A stretch of DNA of 64,000 nt, taken from the NCBI GenBank assembly GCA_964016885.1, contig OZ024742.1, forward strand, positions 83,638,001-83,702,000, read 5' to 3'. This document shows positions 1-61,849 of the stretch, piece after piece. The notes under the pieces were generated by a model. The model saw nothing but the letters and a program-made list of their open reading frames with translations, ran no database searches and had not been told where the DNA came from. The stretch's first letter is position 1, and the number at the start of each line of letters is the position of its first letter. The position numbers and the translations under genes are program-made. This DNA comes from Eledone cirrhosa (lineage: Eukaryota).

Positions 1-3000
1 AGGCTAAAGGAAGGGGGCGGGGCAATCCTCACGATGGACTCAGCTGATAGCTGGATCCGTCCTACACGTGACAGCAGGTGTTCGACATAAACCCACAAGT
101 CAGCAATGCTCGGACACTGGACGAGTGCGTGCAGGACGGTTTCGTCGCCCTGCGCGCATCTCGGACATGCCCGGCTGACGGCACCTCCATGCCTGTAGAG
201 TTTATCCCGAACTGGCAAAGCTCCTCGGTAGCACTGCCAGGCCAGGGATTTCTGGAAGTTGTCCATAGGCCCCGGCCCGAAAGTCCTTCCGAAGAGATTG
301 GCTAGTTGATTTTCGTCGACGCCTAGAGTTTCTCCAAGTACGTCGTCGCTCTTCCCCTCCACTAATCCCCTATAGAACGCCAAGGTGGAGTTTCCACCGA
401 TCACATTGCCCGATTGGTCGAGGGCTGTGAGCGCCTGAAGACATTCCAGTCTCCAAGCGCTCCCTCTCGGTCTTCGCTTGACCCAGGACTGCAGCTCCGT
501 CAAGGAGACGAGCTGGGGAAAAACGTGTCTTGCAAACGGCGACCACACCTGATCACCGTCGAGGAAGAGGTGGAGATGTCGTAGCCTGAGCGCGTGTCTG
601 CGCATCATCAGCCACGGCATGCCCAGCCCTCCACGTAGCGGGTGTTGACAGCAGATGGACCGCCTGACCATCGGAGCGCGTCCCTTCCACAAGAAGCGAA
701 AGAGCAAACGCTCCAGCGCAGTCAGGCGGGGCTTAGGACAAGGTACGACGGTCAGGCGGTAGTAGATGACGGATGCGATGTACGCATTCGCCACCTCCGC
801 TCGACCTTTCAGGGATAGCTTCCTCTCGGCCCATTTCTGGGTGAGAGAAGCCACCCTGCTCGTCACCTCGTCCCAGTTTTTGTCCGTCTGGAGGTCTGGA
901 CCGAACCAGACCCCTAGCAATTTAACCGGTCCGTCCGTCCAGCGCCCGACGACGCTGTTGGACGGCATGGACCTGCCTCTCCAGGTGCCGAGCTGCAGGC
1001 CCACTGACTTTTCCTGGTTGATCATTGCTCCTGTCACCGCTTCGTATTCTCTTAGTGTAGTGCCGATCGCCTCGATGTGTTTGGCGTTCGACACCACTAC
1101 GGTGACATCGTCGGCATATGCTGACACGGATCTTCCGCATCCTAGTTCGCGCGGGACCCCCCTCAACGTCTCCAGTTTGTGCAGTAATGGCTCGAGAGTC
1201 AATACGTACAATAGGGACGAGAGGGGACATCCTTGGCGGACCGAGCGCATGATGTTGAACGGTTCCGAAAGGTGACCGTTCACTCTCACTACAGAGCAGA
1301 TGTCGCTGTGCATGGCAGCGATCCAGCCTCTGAAGACGGGCCCAAAGCCAGCCGCCCTCAGGACTGCCGTTAGGTAACGATGGTCGACCCTATCGAAGGC
1401 TTTCGACTGATCTAAATTGATCAAAGACCCACCCGTGCCAGGTTCCCTAGCTACCCTCTCTACGATGTATCGCATGAGGTGGAGGTTGTCGTGGATGGAT
1501 CTGTCGGGAATGGCGCATGTCTGTGCCTCTCCCACCAGACCACCAACGACAAGCGCCAACCTCTTTGCTAGCACCTTGGCCAAAATCTTGAACTCTGTGT
1601 TTAGCAGAGTTATGGGCCTAAAATTATCTATGTTATCCCCCTTGTTCGGATCCTTTCTCAGCAGCGCCACCGCTCCTCGGCTCACAGAGCTGGGAATTCT
1701 CCCGTTCTGTTGCCAGTTGCAGTAGACGTCCGCCAAGAGGCCTCCGAACAAGTTTGGCATTTGTACGTAAAGTTCATAGGGCAGACCATCCAAACCAGGC
1801 GATTTACCCCTTGTGCAACTAGTCACTGCATCCCGTACTTCAGTGGTTGTTATCGGCTTTTCGCAACACTCCGCCTCAGTGGCCGAAAGCCGCGGCAGTC
1901 CGTCGAGGTAGACACTAAAGTCCATCCCTCGATCCGGCCCGCCACTGCCCCCGAACAGTTGAGCGAAGTGTCGCTGAAAAGCTTCACACATTTGCCCGAG
2001 ATCGAGTAGCATGCGCCCGTCGTGGTCCACCAAAGACCGGATCGTGGCTTTGTTGCCACGACGCGCCTCTGCCACTCGGGCCCATTGAACGGCTTTCGTC
2101 CCCTCGTGTCTGAGAGCACGCACCCTAGCTCTGACAACGCAGCCTTCGTGCTTTGCATTGAAGAATTGGTCAAGGGCCAATTTCGCCGCAAGTACGTCGG
2201 TCGCGATGCCTTTGCTAAGCGCCTCATCTAATTTTCTAACTAATTCTCCCTCTGCTCTATTTTTCTCTATTGCTAAAGTCTTACTAAACCTAATGGACTC
2301 TATTCTAATTGCTCTTTTCAGAGCAAACCACCACTTGTTGTTGACGATGGCCCCCGTCAACGCCCGCTTAACTAGTTCGCTAATCCGGTCTCTGTAGGCC
2401 TTGCGCGCTGGTAAGGACGCGTTTAACTTCCAGTAGCCGGGTCCTCGTCTATGAAGCCTATCTAAGTCAAGCACACAGATCACGAATTTGTGGTCCGTGT
2501 AGCTTACTATCTTGAATTGTGGACAGCCTATGCTAGACCTATCTATTTCCCTACAAAATACTCTATCTAGATATGATCTGGATGACCCTATGCGATTTGT
2601 CCAAGTCCACATTGGTACATTCGGGAAATCCATTCGGTACCTGTCAGACAGTTCAAAACGTCTGAGCAGGTTGGTGAGACTCTTGCACCCTCCTTCCCTA
2701 TCCCACACAATCCCAGCGTGCATCTAAGATCCCGTTCCAGTCGCCCACTAACACTAAAGAGCGGGACGTTCCAAGAAAGGTCTCCAGACGCCGGAAGAAA
2801 TCAGGCCGCCCTGCTCCTGTCGGGGCATAGACGGCCACTAACCTGAAAGCTTGCCCGTCTCCGCTGGTCACGTCCAGCACCACCAACTTACCTTCTGGGT
2901 CCAGGAAGATGGCCCGTATGGCAAGATCCAAACCTCTCCGAAAAAGCACAGCAACTCCTCCCCCCGATCCCGGACGGCTGGGAGATGCGTACACATCGTA

Positions 3001-3162
3001 GCCGCCGAAGATCGGTGCGAAAGCCTGTGCTTCGGAGATTCTGGTCTCGCTGATGGCCACTACATCTATGTTTAGTGACCTGAGGTCGTTGAGCAGGTGG
3101 CCCTGCTTCCATGACGACCCCAAGCCACGCGCATTTATGCTGCCTATTCTGAGTGAGGTCAT
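1..3162 (-). pseudogene. ORF2 of Tx1 copy 1 (APE endonuclease + RT), frameshifted
   Basis: Starts MTSLRIGSINARGL; an ~8-nt deletion near 2700 relative to copy 2 shifts the frame; KAFD and YADD motifs are still readable downstream. Confidence 0.88.
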
Positions 3163-3196
3163 GTTGAAAAGGAGTGGAAAAGATGGGAAAGACCAC

Positions 3197-5101
3197 TTAC
3201 CTTACTTCTCGTAGGGGAAGGACGGTTTTTCCATCCTTTTCACTGCTTGTGGCCTCCTCAGGAAGGATGTCCTTATAAATCCTCCTGGAGAGTGCTTGTC
3301 GGAAGTCTCCGATGTCTTTGGGGAATTTTTGTTTTAGTGTCATGTACGTTTTCTGTGTGATGCGAGTGATTTGTATGTGTGGAGGTGGTGTGAATTTTGG
3401 GGTTGTTGTGTAGTCTTTTTCTGTGATGCTGGTGTTGTGTTGGATGTAGTGCAATAATTGCTTGTTGATCAAATTTAATGCTGTGTAGTGTGTATCGTTT
3501 TGGTTGTTTTGTTTTGTTTGCGTTTGTTGTGGGTTTGTTTCTGTTTCGCATTTTGGTGACTTTTGTGGTGTAGGTGATGGTGGTGTTGGAGTTAATGATG
3601 GTGATGGTGTTGGTGTTTGGGTTGATGGGGTTGGTGATGCTGGTGTGGATGGTGGCATATCTGTCCTAACTTTTTTGTTTCTTAGTTTATTTGTTTCCCT
3701 CTGTATTTTGTTTTTGGAGGGGGAAGGAAGAGAATTTTTTCTTTTTTGGTTTCTTTTTTTTTTTCCGGATATCGTTTCCCACTCCTCGTCGTCACAATCT
3801 GTCTCCAGTTGTGATAGGCCGGGGAGTGGAAAATCCTCCACAGCCGTTAGTTTTGGTTTTGGTGTGGTGGATGGTGTAGGCGCTGGTGCTAGTTCTGAAG
3901 CGTTGGGTGGTGGTGGTGTTGGTTTTGCTGGTGGTGGTAGTGGTGTTGGTTTTGCTACTGTTGCTGGGGTTGTTGCTGTTATAGTTGCTTCTGTTGTTGC
4001 TGCTACAGTTGTTGCTGGCATCTCTGCTACTGGTGGTGTTGATGGTTGTGTCACTGGGGTGGGTAGGAGAGGTGGCCTCAACCTTTTAGCCTGAGGGCAG
4101 AAAGCCCTTAGGTGGGTTCCTTCACCACAAACGACACACCTAGGTCTTCTGCCCTCGACAATTACCGTGAGGTGGCTGCCGTCAGTGAGGTCTATTACCT
4201 CTGGGATCTCCTCAATGCTTTTTTGGTCCGCTTGGATCAGGAGCTCCATCCCAGATCCGGACCAGTTTTCCTGCTTTTCTTTTGCTATTGTTATTATTTT
4301 CGTGTTGGCCTCGATGCCGGCGATGACAGCCGCTATTAGCCAGGGAATTTCGATGGCCGGTGGAACGTGGGTCACCCTGATCTTTACGAGTCTCTGGCCA
4401 CAATAGCTTGGGACGAGTGTGAAGTCGTCACTTTTTAATGGGGCCATGGAGTGTTCTCTAGCCTCCTCTGGTGTTTCAAAGAACACATCCACGGTTCCAT
4501 ACTTTTGCCCACGTCTGATGTGGGTTTTTCTTGCCCACACATGTCCCAAAGCTTTTTGGATTTGGGACTCGGATGCCCGTTCCACTCGGCGCGATTTTAC
4601 ATTTATTGTTCTATACGACACGGTGCATAGGCGCCGATGCTCCATTTTATTAGGTGGGGGGGTGAGGCTGACCCTGTACCCATCTTTCTTTACCATTTGT
4701 TTGGCATTTTCTAAATCTTCTTGAGTTACCGTGAACGCTTCGAATTGTTTTGCTACGATGGCGAAACTGAGGGTCGGTTTTATAATGTCATTGTTGTTGT
4801 TGTTGCTAGCGTTAATATTAATTTTATTTTCAGTTGTGGTGGTGCTGACGTCAGTCGTCTTTGGTGGGGAAGAGTCCATTTTGCTTGATTTCATTTCGAC
4901 ATCACAAGTTAATTTATTTTTTTCTTCTTTTGTTTCTGTTGTCGCGGTGGTGGTGGTGGTGGTGGTTGTCGTGGTGGTGGTGGTGGTGGAGGCTTTAACA
5001 CCTGCAGTCATTGGTAATGGCGGGAAATGAATGTCTGCCTGAGACAAATTTAAAATATTGCTACCGCTTATATTTTTTTGTGTTGGCAAACGTAGTAACA
5101 T
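3197..5101 (-). CDS. ORF1 (gag-like nucleic-acid-binding protein with zinc knuckle) of Tx1 copy 1
   Basis: 634-aa ORF with CVVCGEGTHLRAFC knuckle and Thr/Pro-rich tracts. The true start may be the ATG GCT ACT at 5180 (matching MAT of copy 2), which would need a 1-nt frameshift, possibly in the A-run near 5075. Confidence 0.82.
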   Translation of the reverse strand: MLLRLPTQKNISGSNILNLSQADIHFPPLPMTAGVKASTTTTTTTTTTTTTTATTETKEEKNKLTCDVEMKSSKMDSSPPKTTDVSTTTTENKININASNNNNNDIIKPTLSFAIVAKQFEAFTVTQEDLENAKQMVKKDGYRVSLTPPPNKMEHRRLCTVSYRTINVKSRRVERASESQIQKALGHVWARKTHIRRGQKYGTVDVFFETPEEAREHSMAPLKSDDFTLVPSYCGQRLVKIRVTHVPPAIEIPWLIAAVIAGIEANTKIITIAKEKQENWSGSGMELLIQADQKSIEEIPEVIDLTDGSHLTVIVEGRRPRCVVCGEGTHLRAFCPQAKRLRPPLLPTPVTQPSTPPVAEMPATTVAATTEATITATTPATVAKPTPLPPPAKPTPPPPNASELAPAPTPSTTPKPKLTAVEDFPLPGLSQLETDCDDEEWETISGKKKRNQKRKNSLPSPSKNKIQRETNKLRNKKVRTDMPPSTPASPTPSTQTPTPSPSLTPTPPSPTPQKSPKCETETNPQQTQTKQNNQNDTHYTALNLINKQLLHYIQHNTSITEKDYTTTPKFTPPPHIQITRITQKTYMTLKQKFPKDIGDFRQALSRRIYKDILPEEATSSEKDGKTVLPLREVR

Positions 5102-5389
5102 TTACAATGGTGGTGTCGGTGTGAGGTGTTATTTTGTGAGGAAGGCTTTCAGCTGCTTCGTGCAGAGGTGAAGTAGCCATTTTTTTTTCAAAGAAATTTT
5201 TTGATAATAATAAAAGTTAAAATTTTGGGCACAAGGCCCCAATCTTTTTGGGTGTCCTTTTCGGAAAACAATGTATGTGTGCTTATAAACAGTTAACAGT
5301 AAAATTTTCCATAAATGGCAATTTTTAACAAACGGAAATAACAAACCTTTGCGGAGCTCACGATGATACGATTTACTACGTAGGTCGCC

Positions 5390-5473
<84 letters not shown>
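5390..5473. repeat. (AAT)n microsatellite: tail of copy 2 and target of copy 1
   Basis: Perfect AAT run between the 5' end of copy 1 and the AATAAA-containing 3' end of copy 2. Confidence 0.95.
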
Positions 5474-5475
<2 letters not shown>

Positions 5476-5735
5476 TTTCTTTATTAACCACAAGGGTTTA
5501 CATAAAGTAGACATTAAGGACAGTGCAGGACAATGCAGGACGGTACAAATGGGCATTTCTGCGTGTAAAAAAACAAAAACAGAGGATGTAACAAAAATAA
5601 CAATGAAAATAACAATGAAAAATTCCCCAATAGGGGGGAGACTTCGGAGGGACATTTGTGGAGAAAGCCCAGTAAAAAGCCACAATGACCCTGACCACCA
5701 AGGCAAGTGCCCTCTCCCAGTTTTCCACCTTTAGT

Positions 5736-8700
5736 TTACAGATATATACTCAGAGTCGGCCCATTCACTCGGGCCATTCTTGCTTCTCTCACCCATCTTT
5801 CAACAAAATGCTGGGAAGAGAGCACTTCCCTCTCTACTCTGATTTTCCTTTTCAAATGAAATTTGAAAAAGTCAATCAGAGCATCACCGAAGAGGTAAGT
5901 GCTCGTCTTCAGCCCTTTCAAACGTGTCCACCATACTATCTCTTTCGCCATGGCCACCAGACAGATAAAAACTGCCTGCCCTTCCCGGCTAAAGGAGGAG
6001 GGCGGGGCAATCCTCACGATGGACTCAGATGATAGCTGGATCCGTCCTAAACGCGACAGCAGGTGTTCGACATAAACCCACAAGTCAGCAATTTTCGGAC
6101 ACTGGACGAGTGCGTGCAGGACGGTTTCGTCGCCCTGCGCGCATCTCGGACATGCCCGGCTGACGGCACCTCCATGCCTGTAGAGTTTATCCCGAACTGG
6201 CAAGGCTCCTCGGTAGCACTGCCAGGCCAGAGATTTCTGGAAGTTGTCCATAGGCCCTGGCCCGAAAGTTCTTCCGAAGAGATTGGCTAGTTGATTTTCG
6301 TCGACGCCTAGAGTTTCCCCAAGTACGTCGTCGCTCTTCCCCTCCACTAATCCTCTATAGAACGCCGAGGTGGAGTTTCCACCGATCACATTGCCCGATT
6401 GGTCGAGGGCTGTGAGCGCCTGAAGACATTCCAGTCTCCAGGCGCTCCCTCTCGGTCTTCGCTTGACCCAGGACTGCAGCTCCGTCAAGGAAACGAGCTG
6501 GGGAAAAACGCGTCTAGCAAACGGCGACCACACCTGATCACCGTCGAGGAAGAGGTGGAGATGTCGTAGCCTGAGCGCGTGCCTGCGCATCATCAGCCAC
6601 GGCATGCCCAGCCCTCCACGTAGCGGGTGTTGACAACAGATGGACCGCCTGACCATCGGAGCACGTCCCTTCCACAAAAAGCGAAAGAGCAAACGCTCCA
6701 GCGCAGTCAGGCGAGGCTTAGGACAAGGTACGACGGTTAGGCGGTAGCAGATGACAGACGCGATGTACGCGTTAGCCACCTCCGCTCGACCTTTCAGGGA
6801 TAGCTTCCTCTCCGCCCATTTCTGGGTGAGAGAAGCCACCCTGCTCGTCACCTCGTCCCAGTTTTTGTCCGTCTGGAGGTCCGGACCGAACCAGACCCCT
6901 AGCAATTTAACCGGTCCGTCCGTCCAGCGCCCGACGACGCTGTTGGACGGCATGGACCTGCCTCTCCAGGTGCCGAGCTGCAGGCCCACTGACTTTTCCT
7001 GGTTGATCATTGCTCCTGTCACAGCTTCGTATTCTCTTAGTGTAGTGCCGATCGCCTCGATGTGTTTGGCGTTCGACACCACTACGGTGACATCGTCCGC
7101 ATATGCTGACACGGATCTTCCGCATCCTAGTTCGCGCGGGACTCCCCTCAACGTCTCCAGTTTGTGCAGTAATGGCTCGAGAGTCAATACGTACAAGAGG
7201 GACGAGAGGGGACATCCTTGGCGGACCGAGCGCATGATGTTGAACGGTTCCGACAGGTGACCGTTCACTCTCACCACAGAGCAGATGTCGCTGTGCATGG
7301 CAGCGATCCAGCCTCTGAAGACGGGCCCAAAGCCAGCCGCCCTCAGGACTGCCGCTAGGTAACGATGGTCGACCCTATCGAGAGCTTTCGACTGATCTAA
7401 ATTGATCAAGGACCCACCCGTGCCAGGTTCCCTAGCTACCCTCTCTACGATGTATCGCATGAGGTGGAGGTTGTCGTGGATGGATCTGTCGGGAATGGCG
7501 CATGTTTGCGCCTCTCCCACCAGACCACCAACGACAAGCGCCAACCTCTTTGCTAGCACCTTGGCCAAAATCTTAAACTCTGTGTTTAGCAGAGTTATGG
7601 GCCGGAAATTGTCTATGTTATCCCCCTTGTTCGGATCCTTTCTCAGCAGTGCCACCGCTCCTCGGCTCACAGAACTGGGAATTCTCCCGTTCTGTTGCCA
7701 GTTGCAGTAGACGTCCGCCAAGAGGCCTCCGAACAAGTCTGGCATCTGTACGTAAAGTTCATAGGGCAGACCATCCAAACCAGGCGATTTACCCCTTGTG
7801 CAGCCAGTCATTGCCTCCCGTACTTCAGCGGCTGTTATCGGCTTTTCGCAACGCTTCGCCTCAGTGGCCGAGAGCCGCGGCAGTCCGTCGAGGTAGACAC
7901 TAAAGTCCATCCCTCTACCTGGCCCCCCGCTGCCCCCGAACAGCTGAGCGAAGTGTCGCTGAAAAGCTTCACACATTTGCCCGGGATCGAGTAGCATGCG
8001 CCCGTCGTGGTCCACCAAAGACCGGATCGTGGCTTTGTTGCCACGACGCGCCTCCGCCACTCGGGCCCATTGAACGGCTTTCGTCCCCTCGTGTCTGAGA
8101 GCACGCACCCTAGCTCTGACAACGCAGCCTTCGTGCTTTGCATTGAAGAATTGGTCAAGGGCCAATTTCGCCGCAAGCACGTCGGTCGCAATGCCTTTGC
8201 TAAGCGCCTCGTCTAATTTTCTAACTAGTTCTCCCTCTGCTCTATTTTTCTCTATTGCTAAAGCCTTACTAAACCTAATCGATTCTATTCTAATCGCTCT
8301 TTTCAGAGCAAACCACCACTTGTTGTTGACGATGGCCCCCGTCAACGCCCGCTTAACTAGTTCGCTAATCCGGTCTCTGTAGGCCTTGCGCGCTGGTAAG
8401 GACGCGTTTAGCTTCCAGTAGCCGGGTCCTCGTCTATGAAGCCTATCTAAGTCAAGCACACAGGTCACGAATTTGTGGTCCGTGTAGCTGACTATCTTGA
8501 ATTGTGGACAGCCTATGCTAGACCTATCTATTTCCCTACAAAATACTCTATCTAGATATGATCTGGATGACCCTATGCGGTTTGTCCAAGTCCACATTGG
8601 CACATTCGGGAAATCCAATCGGTACCTGTCAGACAGTTCAAAACGCCTGAGCAGGTTGGTGAGGCTCTTGCACCCTCCACCCCTATCCGCTAATCCCACA

Positions 8701-9155
8701 CAGTCCCAGCGTGCATCTAAGATCCCGTTCCAGTCGCCCACTAACACTAAAGAGCGGGACGTTCCAAGAAAGGTCTCCAGACGCCGGAAGAAATCAGGCC
8801 GCCCTGCTCCTGTCGGGGCATAGACGGCCACTAGCCTGAAAGCTTGCCCGTCTCCGCTGGTCACGTCCAGCACCACCAGCTTACCCTCTGGGTCCAGGAA
8901 GATGGCCCGTATGGCGAGATCCAAACCTCTCCGAAAAAGCACAGCAACTCCTCCACCCGATCCAGGACGGCTGGGAGATGCGTACACATCGTAGCCGCCG
9001 AAGATCGGTGCGAAGGCCCGTGCTTCGGAGATTCTGGTCTCGCTGATGGCCACTACATCTATGTTTAGTGACCTGAGGTCGTTGAGCAGGTGACCCTGCT
9101 TCCATGACGACCCCAAGCCACGCGCATTTATGCTGCCTATTCTGAGTGAGGTCAT
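5736..9155 (-). CDS. ORF2: APE endonuclease, reverse transcriptase, C-terminal zinc finger
   Basis: Open 1139 aa: RIGSINARGL, ISET, GDWN, YLDR, TDH (EN); SPGLDG, FRPITLLN, RQGCPLS, YADD (RT); CPRC...H...C; GPGYWKLN typical of Tx1. KAFD reads KALD in this copy. Confidence 0.95.
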   Translation of the reverse strand: MTSLRIGSINARGLGSSWKQGHLLNDLRSLNIDVVAISETRISEARAFAPIFGGYDVYASPSRPGSGGGVAVLFRRGLDLAIRAIFLDPEGKLVVLDVTSGDGQAFRLVAVYAPTGAGRPDFFRRLETFLGTSRSLVLVGDWNGILDARWDCVGLADRGGGCKSLTNLLRRFELSDRYRLDFPNVPMWTWTNRIGSSRSYLDRVFCREIDRSSIGCPQFKIVSYTDHKFVTCVLDLDRLHRRGPGYWKLNASLPARKAYRDRISELVKRALTGAIVNNKWWFALKRAIRIESIRFSKALAIEKNRAEGELVRKLDEALSKGIATDVLAAKLALDQFFNAKHEGCVVRARVRALRHEGTKAVQWARVAEARRGNKATIRSLVDHDGRMLLDPGQMCEAFQRHFAQLFGGSGGPGRGMDFSVYLDGLPRLSATEAKRCEKPITAAEVREAMTGCTRGKSPGLDGLPYELYVQMPDLFGGLLADVYCNWQQNGRIPSSVSRGAVALLRKDPNKGDNIDNFRPITLLNTEFKILAKVLAKRLALVVGGLVGEAQTCAIPDRSIHDNLHLMRYIVERVAREPGTGGSLINLDQSKALDRVDHRYLAAVLRAAGFGPVFRGWIAAMHSDICSVVRVNGHLSEPFNIMRSVRQGCPLSSLLYVLTLEPLLHKLETLRGVPRELGCGRSVSAYADDVTVVVSNAKHIEAIGTTLREYEAVTGAMINQEKSVGLQLGTWRGRSMPSNSVVGRWTDGPVKLLGVWFGPDLQTDKNWDEVTSRVASLTQKWAERKLSLKGRAEVANAYIASVICYRLTVVPCPKPRLTALERLLFRFLWKGRAPMVRRSICCQHPLRGGLGMPWLMMRRHALRLRHLHLFLDGDQVWSPFARRVFPQLVSLTELQSWVKRRPRGSAWRLECLQALTALDQSGNVIGGNSTSAFYRGLVEGKSDDVLGETLGVDENQLANLFGRTFGPGPMDNFQKSLAWQCYRGALPVRDKLYRHGGAVSRACPRCAQGDETVLHALVQCPKIADLWVYVEHLLSRLGRIQLSSESIVRIAPPSSFSREGQAVFICLVAMAKEIVWWTRLKGLKTSTYLFGDALIDFFKFHLKRKIRVEREVLSSQHFVERWVREARMARVNGPTLSIYL

Positions 9156-9190
9156 GTTTAAAATAGAGTGGAAAAGATGGGAAAGACCAC

Positions 9191-11256
9191 TTACCGTACT
9201 TTTGGTAGAGGAGGGATGGTTTTTACATCCCTTTTCACTTGATCGTCTGGTGAAGGGACCGTTGAATCGTCCCTTCGGCTGGTCGTCGGCTCTTCTAAGA
9301 GTATGTCTGAGTATACTCTTCGATTGAAATCACCAACTGCGTTGGGGAATTTCGTTTTAATGTTTGTGTATTGTTTCTGTGCTATTTTTAGCAGTCTTAT
9401 GTTAGTTGGCGTTTTGATTGGTGCTGGTATTATGTAGTCCTGTTGTGAAATGTCTGTGTGTTCAATTATGTAAGTCATTAGTTTCTTGTTGTGTGTATTT
9501 ATTGCCGTGCATTTGTTTTTCTGGGGGTGGGGTGTGGTTCTGCTATTTTCTTGTCGTTGTTGCTGGGTGTGTGTGTTTTGTTGTTGTGTTTGCGATGTTG
9601 GTGCTTGTGTTGAAGGTGTTGTTGGCGGTGGGGTTGTCGCCGGTGGTGATGGTGGTGCTGGTGTGGGTGGTGATGGTGTTGGTGGTGTTGCTGCTGTGGG
9701 TCTCTTTGCAGTAGACTTTACCCTTTTCTCATTTCTTTCCTCCCTTTTCAAAGGCGACGATGCGCTGCTTCTGCGTTTGTGCCTTCTTGCGACCTTTTGC
9801 CATCCCTCTCCCACCTCACACTCCATGTCTGATTCTGTAAGGTCGGGGAGGGGTACCAGCTCCACTCTTTCACTTGTTGTTGTTGGTGATGTTTGCACTG
9901 GAGTCTCTGTTGCAGCTGCATTTGGTATTGCTGTTGTTGTTGTTAATATTTCCACTGCTGCTGCTGTCTTTGATTTCCGTGGAGTGGGTATGGGTGCCAC
10001 GGACCTATCGTTCCTGGTTGCCGCTTGTCCTGTTGCTGGTAGCCGTGGAGCCGGATTCGGAAGGAGGGGGGTTTTCTCCTTTCTCAGGGTCTTCTCGTTG
10101 CAGAAGGCCCTGAGGTGAGTCTTCGATCCACAGCGAAAGCATTTCGGGCGTTTGCCCTCAACACTTATGGGCAGTTGAGTGCCGTTATCGAAGTCTATCA
10201 CATCCGGGATAGCTTCGATGCACTCCTGGTTGGTTTGGATTAGCATCTCAATGGAGGAGCCGACCCAATCTTCTCTTACTTTTTTCTGTACTTGCAGTAC
10301 AGTTGTTTTGTCCTCGATTCCGACGAGGACAGACGCGGCCAGCCAAGAAGGGGTCATTCCGGGGGGGACGTGGGTCAGTTTGACCCTCACAATTTTTTGC
10401 CCGCAGTAGGAGGGCACCAACACCATTTCCTCGCTCCTTAGGGTCACTACTGATTGGGCCTTTGCCTCCTGGGGTGTGGCAAAAAGTACGTCTACGGTGG
10501 CGTATTTTTTGCCTCGGGTGATGTGCGTTTTCCGCTGCCACACAGACCCCAAGGCTTTTTGTATTTGGGCCTCTGTGGCTCTTTCCACCCTACGGGATTT
10601 TGTACTTACTGTACGGTACGTGACCGTACAGTGCTCTTGGGTTTCGAAAAAAATTTTTTCGCTGCCTTGCAGATTGCTCGGTGTCCGTTCTTTGTCACCA
10701 TCTTCTTCGCTTCCTCTAATTCCTCATTTGTTATGAGGATTGTTTCCAAGTTTTTCGCAATACCTGCAAATGAGATTGGTTTTTCTCTGCTGTTGTTGTT
10801 GTCGTCAGAGCTGCTGGTACTTTTGTTGTTGCTGCAGGTACTACGACTACTGCCTCCGCCGCTGTTGCTGTGGTTGTTGTTGGTGTTGCTGCTGCTAATG
10901 CTGTTGTTGTTTATGCTGCTGGTGATGCTGTTGCGGCTGCTACTGTTGTTTTCATTGTCACTGTTGCTGTTGTTATTACGGCTGCTACTGCTATTATTCC
11001 TGACGTCAGACGAATGAACTGGGTTTTCGTATTTCCCGCACACCTGTTTCGTCGCTGTCGTCGTCGTCGTGGAGAAACCTTGCACGCTTTGCACGAGACT
11101 TTTCTTTTCTTTCGTCACTTGCGAAAGAGAAGGGAGGGAGAGAGACACATTTAAAGAAGGGAGGGAGAGAGACAATCTTCTCTCTGCTGTAGTGATGATT
11201 GAGGAAGAAGACGGAATGAGTGGGAGTGACGTATGAAATTTCTTTTTCGTAGCCAT
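9191..11256 (-). pseudogene. ORF1 of Tx1 copy 2, one frameshift
   Basis: ORFs 10606-11256 and 9191-10588 join across an A/T homopolymer near 10650; CTVTYRTVSTKSRRVERA matches CTVSYRTINVKSRRVERA of copy 1; knuckle CFRCGSKTHLRAFC. Confidence 0.85.
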
Positions 11257-11471
11257 GTTGTTTTTTGTTTAAAATGAAATTTTGGGTACAAAACCCCAAT
11301 AACTGGTTATTTAACCCCGAAGGGCCAAATAACGGACAGAAAGACCCCTCTCACGAGGAGGAGGGTGTCTTTATCAACAATTTGGTTCAAGTTTTAAACA
11401 ATTTACAATTGTTTTAACGGTTAAAAATTACTATACCTTACAGAGCCGAGCCTCCGTCAACCATGGCATTC

Positions 11472-11501
<30 letters not shown>
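11472..11501. repeat. (AAT)n microsatellite flanking the 5' end of Tx1 copy 2
   Basis: AAT run directly adjacent to the element boundary. Confidence 0.9.
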
Positions 11502-11505
<4 letters not shown>

Positions 11506-11846
11506 ATAACCGATAACCGAAGTTGCAGCTGCGAGTAGCAGATACGCAATCGATATTTGAAGGTTATTACAAAGTACTCAATGCTAGAGTAATCAATAAA
11601 TTATTCCTCGGTGTAATCAACATAAGTTAGGTAATAGAGACACAAATGCGACCAGAGGTGTTTTGCCACCTTAATACTGCAACAACGAAAAATACAGACA
11701 GGTTAAAGATGAACTTGAATACTGACGGGTTAAAGACGAACCTGGGGAACTTGTGTGAAGTTAGTAATTCAAACAAATTAAATTCCTATATACGTCTTTT
11801 AACACCACGTCATTATATAAATATATAATAGGTATGTCATATATAT

Positions 11847-12836
11847 TTGGTTGAGTCATAAATAATTTGTCTTTTAAAAGCAAGTTGTAACTAAGCATTT
11901 CATACTTCCAATGTTTCAAACACACCCGAAAATTACCTGATTAAAGAGAGTCTTCATCAGCCATTCTTATTTCATTAGTGAAAGAGCGCGCTTCATAATT
12001 TAATTTATGATTTCACGCCCCTAAATGGAGGTACTGAAAGTGCATATTCGATATATAATGTTGTGGGAGTTTAAGAATAACAAAATCGCTACACAAACAG
12101 CTAAGAAAATGTGTAATGTTTGTGACCAAGGGGTCAATACTGATCGCCAAATCCGAAATTGGTTTTCAAAGTTTCGTTCTGAGGATACATCATTGAGAGA
12201 TGAACCCAGACCAAGACGCTCAACAGACTTCGATCAAGATGCGTTAAGCGAATTGGTGGGATGCAATCCGAGTAAAGGTACTCGAGAATTAGAACTTTAC
12301 TTCAATACAATCCAATCCACAATCTACCGCTGCTAGGCGTTTGGGTTTCTCATACACTTAGTGAAAGAAATAAGGAAGATCGCATATCCATAGCCAGGAA
12401 TCTTATTTCAAGGCAGAGAAATGCCCTGTTTTTCAAGAATATCATTACAGATGAAGAAATATGGGTCTTTTATGACAATGTTCAATGTAAAAGGCACTGG
12501 ATTGACAAGGATAAATCTCTGCAGCTACCCTAAAGGTGGAGCTTCGTGAAAGAAATGTTATGCTGTATGTATAGTGGGATCACTGTGGTATTATTCATTT
12601 TGAGTTTTAAAATGCTCAAACAGCTTTGTCAAGAAAATCAATTAAAAACGTTTCTTGAAAACATCTTGAGCTCGAAACAAGCTGAATTTTACTTGCGAGG
12701 AATCAGAAAGTTACCTGATAAATCGCTTGAGGTGGTTCAAAATAATAGCGAATATACTATTGATTGAAATTAATTCTGTTAAATTATTTATAAATAAATT
12801 ATTTTACTAGAACGGAAATTGTTTATGATTCAACTT
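11847..12836 (+). mobile_element. Internally deleted mariner DNA transposon
   Basis: Imperfect TIRs (ttggttgagtcataaataatttg / ggaaattgtttatgattcaactt); transposase HTH fragment HIRYIMLWEF...WFSKFRSEDTSLRDEPRPRR and decayed ITDEEIWV (first D of DD34D); mariner-like C-terminus FYLRGIRKL. Confidence 0.85.
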
Positions 12837-36559: not shown

Positions 36560-37745
36560 AAGAGAGCACGTCAACCTTTGCACCTCTCTTCGTCAATAAA
36601 GCCACAATCAGGTATTTGGTGGCCCACGACGGGCGCATGGTACTCAATCAGAGACTAACTTTTGAAACTCTTTGCTCAAATCTTCGGGAGCAGTAGTGGA
36701 CCGGACCGCGGGATGGACTTCAATGTGCACACCGATGTTGCGCAATGGCTCTCGATGACAGAGGCAGGATGTTGCCAAAAGTCGATAGCAGCCGATGAAA
36801 CATGGGAGGCAATAACTAACTGCATGAGATATAAATCGTTTGGTTTAGATTGTGAGCACAACGAGCTTTACACTTCCGTGCCTGACTTGTTCGACATCTT
36901 GGCAGACGTCTACCGCATCTGGTCGCAGAACGGGAGAATTGCGTGAGTCGAGGAATAATAGTGATGCAAGGGAGTGTTATATTGATAATCTGAGGCCCAT
37001 AACTCTGCTAAATGCAAAGATTAGAATTTTGGCTAACGAGGTTGGTGCTTGTCGTTGATCGTCTAGTAGGGAAGGTGCAAACATTTGACATTCATAACAG
37101 ATCACCCTAGTACAACTTCCACTTTATGTGATACATCAAAGGGACGGTAGCTAAGGAACCTGGCAGGGATAGGTCCGTGTTAAATTTAGACCAACGAAAG
37201 GATTTGATATGCTCTACCATAGGTAACTGGTCTGGTAGCACTCGTCAAGGCAGCCGGCTTCTGACTCCTTCGCTCTGTTGTCTTCTTTGGAGCATTTTCC
37301 TCAGTCAGTTAGCTATGACGAAAGACGAGGCGATAAAAAGGACAGAAGGCAAAGCCCTCATCGACATTTACAAATTCCAATGGGAACGAAAGGGGAGAGT
37401 GGAAGGGAAGTTCCGCCTCCAGTATATTTGTTAAAATGTGGGTGAATGTAGTGAGGACACTCCGAATGAATGGGCCTATACTAAGCACCTTCATATGGGG
37501 CCCTTGAAAATCTGGGTGATTTCAAATCTGTGGGATTCCTAAATAAACCCTGAGTGATCCCCGTCATCATCCTCATCATTTTAACCTACGTTTTCCCTGC
37601 TAGCAAGGTTTGGACGCTGTTGTTATTAATGTTGCTTGTTACCTTATATACTTTTCACTGTTTCTTCAATTTAAGTAAATCCCAATGTTCTGTATTTATT
37701 TGTATTGTCCTTTGTGTTTCCACCCTAGTGGTCAATAAAACACTT
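36560..37745 (+). mobile_element. Old, 5'-truncated and internally deleted copy of the same Tx1 family
   Basis: FAQIFGSSSGPDRGMDF, DNLRPITLLN and a 3' UTR ending gtggtcaataaaa align with copy 2; large deletion near 37260. Confidence 0.85.
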
Positions 37746-58174: not shown

Positions 58175-60412
58175 TCAAACTTTCAAATACAAACCTCTCA
58201 GCCCAACAAGTAAAAATTCTCTCCAAAGGACTGAAATTCACACCAACACCACAATACTCTAAACCCAATGAGATAAATGACGATATCTCACACTTCTGTA
58301 GAAAATTACGTCTCACGGAGGAATTCTTTGACAAGGAGAATAACGACGAATCAATTGTACGGAATAAAAGCAGCTACAACCCAACAAAAGGTAGAAACAG
58401 AGTTCTGGACAAATTTTGTGACCACATAGCTACCTTCCCATACCATGAACTTCCGCAACCTAAACCCAAACCCAACACGAGTCGAAGGGAATGGGAGATT
58501 ATCCATGAACTAAAAAACAATACAGACATTATAATTAAGGAAGCGGACAAGGGAAGTACTGTTGTCATTATGGAGGCTGAAAAATATAAAAATTCTATGT
58601 TCTCTCTCTTACAAAATACTAATTACTATGAAATAGTAAAAAAACTACCAGCAATCAAAAACAATGACCAGATTAAACACACTGATTTATCGATACCAGG
58701 AAGACCTAACTAAAAAGGAACGCGATTATTTAACACATTTTGAATACAAAACCAGCAACCTTTACGGACTTCCGAAGATCCACAAGTGTAAAATAATTAA
58801 CGATGCCTGTAAACAATCCACCTCAGCCTGCGTGAACACACAATACCCCACAGACCTTAAATTAAGACCAATTGTAGCGGGCCCACAATGTGAAACACAC
58901 AGACTGAGTAACTTTATAGACATACTACTAAAACCAATTCTCAAACACATACCAAGCCTTGTAAGAGACGATCTGGACCTCTTAAACCACCTCTCCAAAC
59001 ATGTCAACAACGACGCTATTATTGTGTCTTTCGATGTAGTGAATCTCTACACAACGATCCCACACCAATACGGACTAGAAGCAATAGGATTCTGGCGAGA
59101 GAAATATCCCAATGAGATACCTGACAGAATAGAAAAAAGCTTCATCACCGAGGGATTAAAATTCATCTTACAGAACAACTTTTTTGATTTCGAAGGCAAT
59201 ACTTACAAGCAAATATCGGGGACTGCGATGGGTACAAAAGCCGCTCCAACTTATGCCAACTTAGTCATGGCATACTTAGAAGTCCAGATATATGAACAGT
59301 CCAAATCAAAATACGGATTGAACTTCCACAAATATTTATCAGAGAATTGGAAACGCTACTTGGATGATTGTCTCATTCTTTGGTCCCACACACTCGACCA
59401 ACTGAAAGATTTCAAAAACCTAATAAACGGCATCAATAACCACATCCAATTCACAATGGAATACAGCCAAGATCAACTCCCATTTCTGGACATCTTAATC
59501 TTTAAAAAAGACACAAATATCGAAACTGACATACACTACAAACCAACAGATTCCAAACAATACCTGCTATTCACCTCCAACCATCCAAAGCACACGAAGA
59601 CGAACATTCCTTTTAACCTAGCAAGAAGAATTTGCACAATTGTCTCCAATTATGAAACGCGAAATAAAAGACTTCAAGAATTAAAGGAAATTCTACTCGA
59701 AAGAGAGTACCCACTATTACTAATAAATAATGGAATAGAAAGGGCTAAAGCAATAGGCATTGATGAATTACGAAAACCGAAACAAATTCAAGGTACGTCC
59801 AATATTCTATCATATATCTCAACACACAAGCCAAGAAATGCGGAAGCTTACAACACTATTCACAAGAACATCCCACTACTAAAACAAAACCCAAGAATGA
59901 AAAAAGCCCTTGAAACACACAAAATAATCAAAAGCAAAAGACAAGCGAAATCACTGAAAACATTACTCACCAATGCCAAATTACCTACCACAAACCCACA
60001 ACCAAGTATCAAAAAATGTGGTCGCTCTAATTGTGGAACCTGCATTCACCTCATTGAAGGCAACACGTATACATTTAAATCAGGACAAAATTTTACTGTA
60101 AAAAATTACTTCACTTGCTCATCAAAAAATCTAATTTATGCCATTAAATGTAAAGGATGCAATGAAGATTATATAGGACAAACTAAACTCACACTCAGAA
60201 ACAGAATGACAGTTCATCGCCAACAATTACGAGATCCAACCACGAGACAGACACCACTAAGTGCACATCTAGACATTTGCGCAAGTAATAAGACACCCAA
60301 ATTCCAAGTCTTCCCATTTTACCTTTGCGCTAATAATACAACAGAACAAATACGAATAAATAAGGAAAATATGTTTATTCAAAAATATAGACCAGCATTA
60401 AATATGGTTTAA
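58111..60412 (+). pseudogene. PLE reverse transcriptase + GIY-YIG endonuclease (one frameshift near 58640)
   Basis: LSKGLKFTPTP, IKEADKG, YGLPKIHK, RPIV, FDVVNLYT, GTAMG, YLDD; Cys linker CGRSNCGTC (Neptune-like); LIY..C..C..YIGQT. Confidence 0.93.
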
Positions 60413-60910: not shown

Positions 60911-60956
<46 letters not shown>

Positions 60957-61277
60957 GCACACAAATAAACATACATATCTTTACTTTCTTTATTCAATAG
61001 AAAATCTGAATTCTGACACCCCAGCGAACTAACCATATTCACTGAACCAGAACAATTCTCCCATCCCATTTCTCTTGACCATTATCTTTTGCTTGTCATA
61101 ACATTCTCTAAAGAGGCTACAGAATAGATTTCCAAATAAGGGCGCAAAAATTTAATGAAAACTTGTTCACGTGTCAGCCATAATTTCATTTATAACCAAT
61201 CAAATTACGTTTATTTAAAAAAAGCCTTCGTGAGCCCTCTTTTTTAAGTAAAAAGACATTCAAACACATACACACAA

Positions 61278-61308
<31 letters not shown>

Positions 61309-61849
61309 GCGCGCACACACACACACAAGCACACAAATAAACATACATATCTTTACTTTCTTTATTCAATAGAAAATCTGAATTCTGACACCCCAGCGAA
61401 CTAACCATATTCACTGAACCAGAACAATTCTCCCATCCCATTTCTCTTGTCCATTATCTTTTACTTATCATAAAATTCTCTAAAAAGGCTACAGAGTGGA
61501 TTTCCAAATAAGGGCGCGAAAATTTAATGAAAACATATTCACGTGACAGCCATAATTTCATTTATAACCAATCAAATTACGCTTATTTAAAAAAAGCCTT
61601 CGTGAGCCCCTTTTTTCAAGTAAAAAGAAATTCAAACACTCATATATGAAAAAACAACCTGTGACACCCCCCTTGTTTGAAGAACTTTGTAACGCGAACT
61701 GGCGCGAAATTTATTATAATTATTGACCAACCAATCAAATTACTTCTCGAAAAACCTGGCATTTCGAGCCACTTTTTCCATATAAAACAAGTAACATTCA
61801 GAGACCAACCAGATGTGAGAAAAACCACAGACCCTCCATCTCAACTCTA

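What the first reader, a model, noticed from the sequence alone, without database searches (positions are those of the whole stretch)
9142..9194. Same donor, acceptor and phase in copy 2 despite a divergent ORF1 and a 1-nt longer spacer
Seen: CG|GTAAGT...CTCAG|AATA, 53 nt. Splicing again gives V-R-I-G-S in frame (P-K-V-R-I-G). The spacer differs by an indel, which is tolerated by splicing but argues against a fixed frameshift or read-through route to a fusion. Both ORF1s end in V-R at the donor. Caveat: the segment may be conserved only because it travels with the near-identical ORF2 module, or it may be a re-initiation signal.
Basis: partly seen in the sequence, partly recalled or inferred. 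Interest (0 to 1): 0.75.

Follow-up and report, generated by a model that had tools for sequence, protein, structure and literature searches.

The report
LINE splice donor under RNA clamp
The proposed 53-base intron in this jumping gene is really the gap between its two genes plus the second gene's own start, and no spliced copy was found in the genome; its splice-donor motif is nevertheless conserved and is predicted to be covered by a long-range RNA helix that likely keeps the full-length RNA uncut.

Summary
The 53-nt GT..AG segment exists (minus strand), but it is not a fusion intron. It holds the ORF1 stop, a 35-nt spacer and ORF2's own ATG; the 'acceptor' is ORF2's Leu-Arg codons. The element is a young Tx1-type LINE. 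No spliced copy was found against about 7,300 unspliced ones. A 634-copy sister family keeps the donor but reads ORF1 through it, breaking the phase, and starts ORF2 at ATA overlapping the ORF1 stop. Two things are real: the donor motif is conserved over the U1 footprint in lineages about 70% identical, and the spacer is complementary to the start of the 3'UTR 3.4 kb away, with compensatory changes. Likely, U1 binds the nascent RNA and the helix later masks the donor and brings the poly(A) tail near the ORF1 stop; this is untested. No RNA run was available. This scan noted the donor and helix before on other pieces of this genome; the ATA-start family was not in my word search.

The parts
5474..11471 (-). 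Copy 2: full-length Tx1-type LINE (family B here), flanked by (AAT)n on both sides
   Evidence: at least 40 genome copies 100% identical over 8900-9300
9191..11256 (-). ORF1 of copy 2, with a CCHC knuckle seen by eye; split by a frameshift near 10650; stop TAA at 9193-9191
   Evidence: 2-nt difference from run contigs at 10653; no homologues found
9212..9232 (-). Predicted local hairpin upstream of the ORF1 stop; one pair differs on both sides between copies 1 and 2
   Evidence: sequence
9189..9197 (-). 5' splice-site (U1-type) motif ACG|GTAAGT overlapping the ORF1 stop
9156..9190 (-). True inter-ORF spacer, 35 nt, pyrimidine-rich, ending AAAC before the ATG
9167..9195 (-). 5' arm of the predicted long-range helix (donor plus spacer)
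9142..9143 (-). The claimed acceptor AG: first two bases of the Arg5 codon of ORF2
5736..9155 (-). ORF2, 1139 aa, intact: APE endonuclease, reverse transcriptase, zf-RVT
5702..5729 (-). 3' arm of the predicted long-range helix, just after the ORF2 stop (26 bp, -40.7 kcal/mol)
5559..5580 (-). T-rich acceptor-like site in the 3'UTR (..ACACGCAG); present in families A, B, F, absent from C and D
5480..5485 (-). Terminal AATAAA, about 250 nt after the ORF2 stop
5390..5473 (.). (AAT)28 between copy 2 and copy 1; (AAT)10 at 11472-11501 on the other side of copy 2
1..5389 (-). Copy 1 (family A here): different ORF1, same junction module (donor G 3200, ATG 3162); ORF2 frameshifted near 2700

Best explanation
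The segment is the inter-ORF spacer and first codons of ORF2 in a Tx1-type LINE, and ORF2 protein is likely made by ribosomes that finish ORF1 and restart at 9155, not by splicing; the conserved donor likely binds U1 and is predicted to be masked by a helix with the 3'UTR. Shown: the anatomy, conservation of the donor and of the ORF2 start, absence of spliced copies in the patterns searched, and spacer-3'UTR complementarity with compensatory changes. Inferred: (1) while ORF2 is being transcribed the donor is free and binds U1, stabilising the nascent RNA or holding off early 3'-end formation; (2) once the 3'UTR is made, the helix closes ORF2 into a loop and hides the donor, so the finished RNA stays unspliced and can be copied whole; (3) the same fold puts the poly(A) tail about 250 nt, not 3.7 kb, from the ORF1 stop, which would help the RNA escape nonsense-mediated decay, and ribosomes ending ORF1 would open the helix to reach the ORF2 start.
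For: Own start: ATG in a (C/A)AAC context in 7 of 8 lineage representatives; Leu4 invariant with codons CTC/TTA/CTA/TTG. In 106 of 112 homologues matched from the N-terminus, a Met lies within 14 residues before the motif Asn. No spliced copies: 4290 A/B, 935 C/C2 and 1460 D donors intact, plus 634 E starts; every deviant copy examined lacked a donor-to-AG join. Family E: ORF1 reads through the donor and stops at a TAG overlapping ATA; one copy has ORF2 open for 1145 aa; 13 synonymous vs 4 non-synonymous differences between two copies. Donor: positions -2..+6 shared by 7-8 of 8 lineages; best or tied-best U1 match among about 270-430 GT sites in 15 of 15 elements. Helix: better than all own-element windows in 12 of 16 representatives; z -2.0 to -6.2 against shuffles in 16 of 16; 99 of 120 cells paired in register against 35-72 when slid, with four pair types at one position; sense fold stronger than antisense in 13 of 16.
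Against: No RNA evidence for U1 binding, for the helix or for reinitiation. The helix covers the whole donor only in A/B; in C and D the central TAA is predicted unpaired and in one F copy only the exon side pairs. Cognate pairing is not always the best: D spacers score better with the A/B UTR. Two of 9 further copies gave weak helices. ORF2 has few internal poly(A) signals, so there is little downstream for U1 to suppress. Only three deep lineages, all from one genome, were compared, and the register was chosen from these same sequences. Gene callers start proteins at Met by construction, which inflates.
Confidence: 0.5

Rival explanations
1. The donor is used to splice out all of ORF2, giving an ORF1-only mRNA (as for copia Gag), with the helix setting the ratio.
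For: Each family has a candidate acceptor near the ORF2 end: the TAG stop itself in C, D, E and one F copy, or ..ACACGCAG in the 3'UTR of A, B, F. A donor on the stop costs ORF1 nothing. An RNA without ORF2 would be copied poorly, so few genomic copies are expected.
Against: No ORF2-less copy joined at the donor was found. The acceptor is not at one conserved place, the C-terminal extension would range from 1 to about 100 residues, and the predicted helix covers the donor rather than presenting it.
Confidence: 0.25
2. The motif is kept only as part of the helix and stop-codon context (a translation element) and merely looks like a donor.
For: TAA explains three of the positions, and the GG pairs with the UTR in nearly all representatives. 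Family E shows stop-start coupling.
Against: The rest of the helix changes freely with compensation while the motif does not. Family E keeps it where it is no longer a stop, and its copies vary only between GTAAGT and GTAGGT in the 15 copies read.
Confidence: 0.17
3. One reading: a 52-53-nt intron is removed to make an ORF1-ORF2 fusion protein.
For: Strong donor, pyrimidine tract and an in-phase AG in families A, B, C, C2, D, F and G. Length alone does not exclude it: the abstract start of PMC13644364 puts the general animal limit near 30 nt, and I have no intron-length data for this genome.
Against: No intron-less copy among about 7,300, whereas spliced retrocopies are about 1.8% of full-length human L1 (PMC5860796, passages). 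Phase is lost in family E; the acceptor is AAG or GAG in C, D and E; the splice would delete the invariant Leu4; in-phase joining follows automatically from Arg-stop and Leu-Arg. No long ORF1-containing protein was found (weak).
Confidence: 0.06

Closest known systems
Tx1-clade non-LTR retrotransposons, microsatellite-targeting Kibi/Koshi type (PMC4494074, passages); L1-Tx1 families are recently active in Octopus vulgaris (PMC13282606, passages)
   Same: Two ORFs, APE-RT-zinc finger ORF2, insertion in a microsatellite, tandem copies
   Different: Targets here are (ATT)n and (CTAT)n, not (TC)n/(TTC)n. No donor on the ORF1 stop or ORF2-closing helix appeared in the papers searched. RT phylogeny was not tested.
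Arabidopsis EVD and plant Ty1/Copia donor at the end of gag (PMC5580714, passages)
   Same: A conserved U1 site at the end of the structural-protein ORF, proposed there also to protect the full-length RNA from early termination
   Different: EVD is an LTR element whose splicing is shown. Here no spliced product is seen, and a long-range helix covers the site.
Human L1 and silkworm SART1 termination-reinitiation; calicivirus stop-start (PMC5972666, passages)
   Same: Short spacer or overlapping stop-start between ORF1 and ORF2; calicivirus reinitiation tolerates changed start codons, as family E would need
   Different: The structure here joins the spacer to the 3'UTR 3.4 kb away; in SART1 it lies just downstream of the overlap.
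Fold-back escape from nonsense-mediated decay (PMC2689704, abstract); PTBP1 protection near retroviral stops (PMC4764554, abstract)
   Same: Pairing that brings the poly(A) tail near a stop codon; a pyrimidine tract just after the stop
   Different: The fold-back was shown in human cells; here it would be a natural, conserved version in a LINE, and it is untested.

Membership tests
L1/Tx1-group LINE | ORF2 with N-terminal APE endonuclease, RT and C-terminal zinc finger | tested here: met
   Pfam Exo_endo_phos, RVT_1, zf-RVT; L1 endonuclease structures hit
L1/Tx1-group LINE | Separate upstream ORF1; 3' end with poly(A) signal, no LTRs | tested here: met
Tx1 clade, microsatellite-targeting type | Insertion into a microsatellite | tested here: met
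   (AAT)n on both sides of copy 2; (ATT)n or (CTAT)n at 3' ends and at family E 5' ends; not counted genome-wide
Tx1 clade | RT phylogeny inside the Tx1 clade | not tested
   No named Tx1 reference sequences were on hand
Spliceosomal mini-intron fusing ORF1 and ORF2 | Conserved 5' splice site | tested here: met
Spliceosomal mini-intron fusing ORF1 and ORF2 | Conserved YAG acceptor | tested here: not met
   CAG in A, B, F, G; AAG in C, C2, most D; GAG in D5, E
Spliceosomal mini-intron fusing ORF1 and ORF2 | Conserved phase | tested here: not met
   Family E donor is in phase 0 inside ORF1
Spliceosomal mini-intron fusing ORF1 and ORF2 | Spliced retrocopies in the genome | tested here: not met
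   None
Spliceosomal mini-intron fusing ORF1 and ORF2 | Junction reads in RNA | not testable with these tools
   No RNA holder listed
EVD/copia-type subgenomic splicing | Spliced structural-protein-only mRNA | tested here: inconclusive
   Candidate acceptors exist; no genomic copies, but such RNA may not be copied; no RNA data
Termination-reinitiation bicistronic RNA | Stop and start close or overlapping; ORF2 output depends on ORF1 translation | tested here: inconclusive
   Proximity met (spacers about 23-49 nt, overlap in E); dependence needs an assay

The most novel reading that the evidence does not exclude
A LINE lineage controls its own RNA with a timed switch: a U1 site on the ORF1 stop is open during transcription, then a co-evolving 3'UTR helix closes ORF2 into a loop. 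The switch decides between full-length RNA and an ORF2-less spliced mRNA, shields the bicistronic RNA from decay, and couples ORF2 synthesis to ORF1 termination so tightly that one successful family needs no AUG.
Probability: 0.3. Interest if true: 0.75.

Novelty: new variant of a known kind. Interest (0 to 1): 0.5.

Why it matters
How LINEs translate ORF2, keep their RNA unspliced and avoid decay of a bicistronic message is still partly open (PMC5381506 and PMC5972666, passages). This lineage offers defined, testable cis-elements with natural variants: a fixed donor, a co-varying helix, and an apparently autonomous family without an ORF2 AUG.

Tried and rejected
RNA: no RNA holder listed. Contigs of six runs of unrecorded kind were listed and five laid; no listed joint matched the donor, but 30 and 268 joints were not shown, so this is no evidence either way. 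Metagenome scans found no relative, so nothing outside this genome was compared at DNA level. ORF1 had no protein homologues, long or near. Rfam gave no match in 1-12500. A conserved acceptor inside ORF2: several YAGs are shared by 9 of 9 elements aligned (family D missing from that run), all explicable by coding. The 3'UTR acceptor as a universal partner was rejected because C and D lack it. Upstream AATAAA suppressed by the donor: present 235-563 nt upstream in most elements but expected in A-rich ORF1. A local hairpin over the stop is not consistently significant (z +1.3 to -3.8). L259 looked like a donor-joined chimera but is a chance match; L283 is a fragment. L185 and L204 are microhomology deletions without AG. 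ORF1 exchange by splicing at the donor does not fit copies 1 and 2, whose likeness extends about 45 nt upstream. The pattern could not catch the predicted C joins and was replaced. PMC1356112 (Alisch 2006) is not held and is cited only through PMC5972666 and PMC5381506. Passages of PMC7140322, PMC11203168 and PMC9115989 had no bearing.

Full report
Observation. On the minus strand, 9194-9142 is 53 nt, GTAAGT...CTCAG, as reported; copy 1 has a 52-nt counterpart at 3200-3149. Both lie between ORF1 and ORF2 of two tandem LINE copies separated by (AAT)28. ORF2 of copy 2 is an intact 1139-aa APE-RT-zinc finger protein. The host is probably an octopus; this is inferred from a named hit to Octopus sinensis. 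The segment contains the ORF1 stop (inside GTAA), a 35-nt spacer and an ATG at 9155 that opens M-T-S-L-R-I-G-S-I-N. The 'acceptor' is the Leu-Arg codon pair.

Copy number and spliced copies. The ORF2 start 22-mer occurs 4786 times. The predicted junction pattern, with one mismatch allowed, gave one hit, and that copy was unspliced. I then looked for any join at the donor. For families A/B, 4290 copies have an intact donor. All 54 matches lacking T at +2 and all 40 with T at +2 but no A at +3 were read: point changes, small indels, two microhomology deletions without AG, two local inversions, one fragment and one chance match. Joins whose second exon starts N-T-A are not covered. Family D: 1460 intact, 10 of 10 deviants unspliced. 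Families C/C2: 935 intact; the 12 and 9 deviants (two shared) continue into the spacer. Family E: 634 starts, one deviant donor, a point change. In human L1, spliced retrocopies are about 1.8% of full-length copies (PMC5860796, passages). A fusion RNA would carry its own RT, so none in about 7,300 counts against it.

Distant families. Patterns on the ORF2 start, independent of the donor, found families C, C2, D, E, F and G. They form three deep groups at about 70% ORF2 identity, with ORF1s mostly unalignable. The donor was present in 13 of 15 and 27 of 30 loci. In eight representatives, picked among copies that have the motif, positions -2 to +6 are shared by 7-8 of 8 and flanking positions by 3-7. 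The site is the best or tied-best U1 match in 15 of 15 elements. The acceptor side behaves as coding sequence: Leu4 is invariant with four different codons, so the base before AG is C, A or G, and the donor-to-AG distance is 41-67 nt. In 106 of 112 homologues matched from the N-terminus (of 150 listed), a Met lies within 14 residues before the motif Asn, and the longest N-terminal extension was 106 residues.

Natural experiment. In family E, ORF1 reads through the donor (phase 0) and ends ...G-E-V-S-A-F-L-S-S-L-S-T-P-K at a TAG that overlaps ATA, where sister families have ATG. Of the 100 matches listed, 98 have ATA, 2 ACA and none ATG. Four copies have a full 610-611-aa ORF1 in this frame, one has ORF2 open for 1145 aa, and two copies differ by 13 synonymous and 4 non-synonymous changes. 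One copy (L225) and an older variant (L304) read in the stop-at-donor frame, and many E copies break near ORF2 residue 75-79. So the donor survives without the stop and without the phase, and ORF2 is apparently made without an AUG. This fits termination-reinitiation, proposed for L1 and SART1 and tolerant of start-codon changes in caliciviruses (PMC5972666, passages).

The helix. Earlier notes of this scan suggested pairing between the spacer and the 3'UTR, and I tested it. In copy 2, 9195-9167 pairs with 5729-5702 (26 bp, -40.7 kcal/mol). The duplex beat all own-element windows in 12 of 16 representatives, one of the misses being mis-anchored. It exceeded dinucleotide shuffles in 16 of 16 (z -2.0 to -6.2) and all 33 control windows in co-folding for 5 of 5 tested. 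Of 20 more loci, 9 had a locatable 3' end; 7 were reached by at most 1 of 150 shuffles and 2 were weak. Family G gave -51.2. In a fixed register for 12 C, C2 and D copies, 99 of 120 cells pair against 35-72 when slid, and one position shows G-C, A-U, U-A and C-G. Limits: few independent lineages, a register taken from the same sequences, and D spacers that pair better with the A/B UTR. The helix covers -1 to +6 of the donor in A/B, part of it in C, D and F, and the ORF2 start context in C and D.

Mechanism. ORF2 is likely translated by reinitiation (about 0.85). The donor likely binds U1 (about 0.75) and the helix likely forms (about 0.8). The full model, at 0.5, is that U1 protects the nascent RNA and the helix then masks the donor and shortens the distance from the ORF1 stop to the poly(A) tail. 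Precedents are the dual role of U1 at the EVD donor (PMC5580714, passages) and suppression of decay by fold-back (PMC2689704, abstract). Splicing out all of ORF2 remains possible (0.25). All steps at RNA level are inferred; no RNA run was available.

Known and new. The element fits the L1/Tx1 group and resembles microsatellite-targeting Tx1 families (PMC4494074, passages); phylogeny was not tested. Nine full-text searches listed no paper whose title or abstract start describes a donor on a LINE ORF1 stop or an ORF2-closing helix. A survey of vertebrate L1 spacers found no shared structure and does not contain the word stem 'splic' (PMC5381506, passages). Repbase and most subscription journals were not searched, and no supplements were read. 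Within this scan, 11 findings match the donor words, all 8 shown from this genome; none matched the ATA-start words.

Verdict. A conserved donor with a long-range helix is real at sequence level and untested in RNA. Interest 0.5.

Noticed in passing
G000 family E, e.g. L327, L324, L312-L323: 634-copy family with ATA in place of the ORF2 ATG, overlapping the ORF1 stop; many copies break near ORF2 residue 75-79, beside a G run (assembly error or a defective sub-lineage)
   Followed up: partly
window 1-11471 and genome-wide: Copies often stand head to tail about 6 kb apart; families A, B and F share ORF2 at 92-96% but A and B ORF1s do not align at DNA level, suggesting ORF1 exchange
   Followed up: partly
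L221-L240 3' ends: Families A, B, C, F end in (ATT)n; D and E end in (CTAT)n or (CTGT)n: a change of microsatellite target within one lineage
   Followed up: partly
window 9212-9232 and equivalents: Most families have their own predicted hairpin 15-45 nt upstream of the donor
   Followed up: partly
window 36594-37228: ORF2 fragment of a distant relative (69% identity), opposite orientation
   Followed up: no
window 58640-60412 (+): Penelope-like ORF, 590 aa, RT plus GIY-YIG; a 372-bp tandem duplication follows at 60942-61639
   Followed up: no
P0005: A protein named tectonic-3-like of Octopus sinensis carries about 60 residues resembling this ORF2's endonuclease; exonisation or a gene-model artefact
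   Followed up: no
window 9324 and 9598: Contigs of runs X2 and X5 carry in-frame 21- and 9-nt insertions in ORF1 relative to copy 2
   Followed up: no
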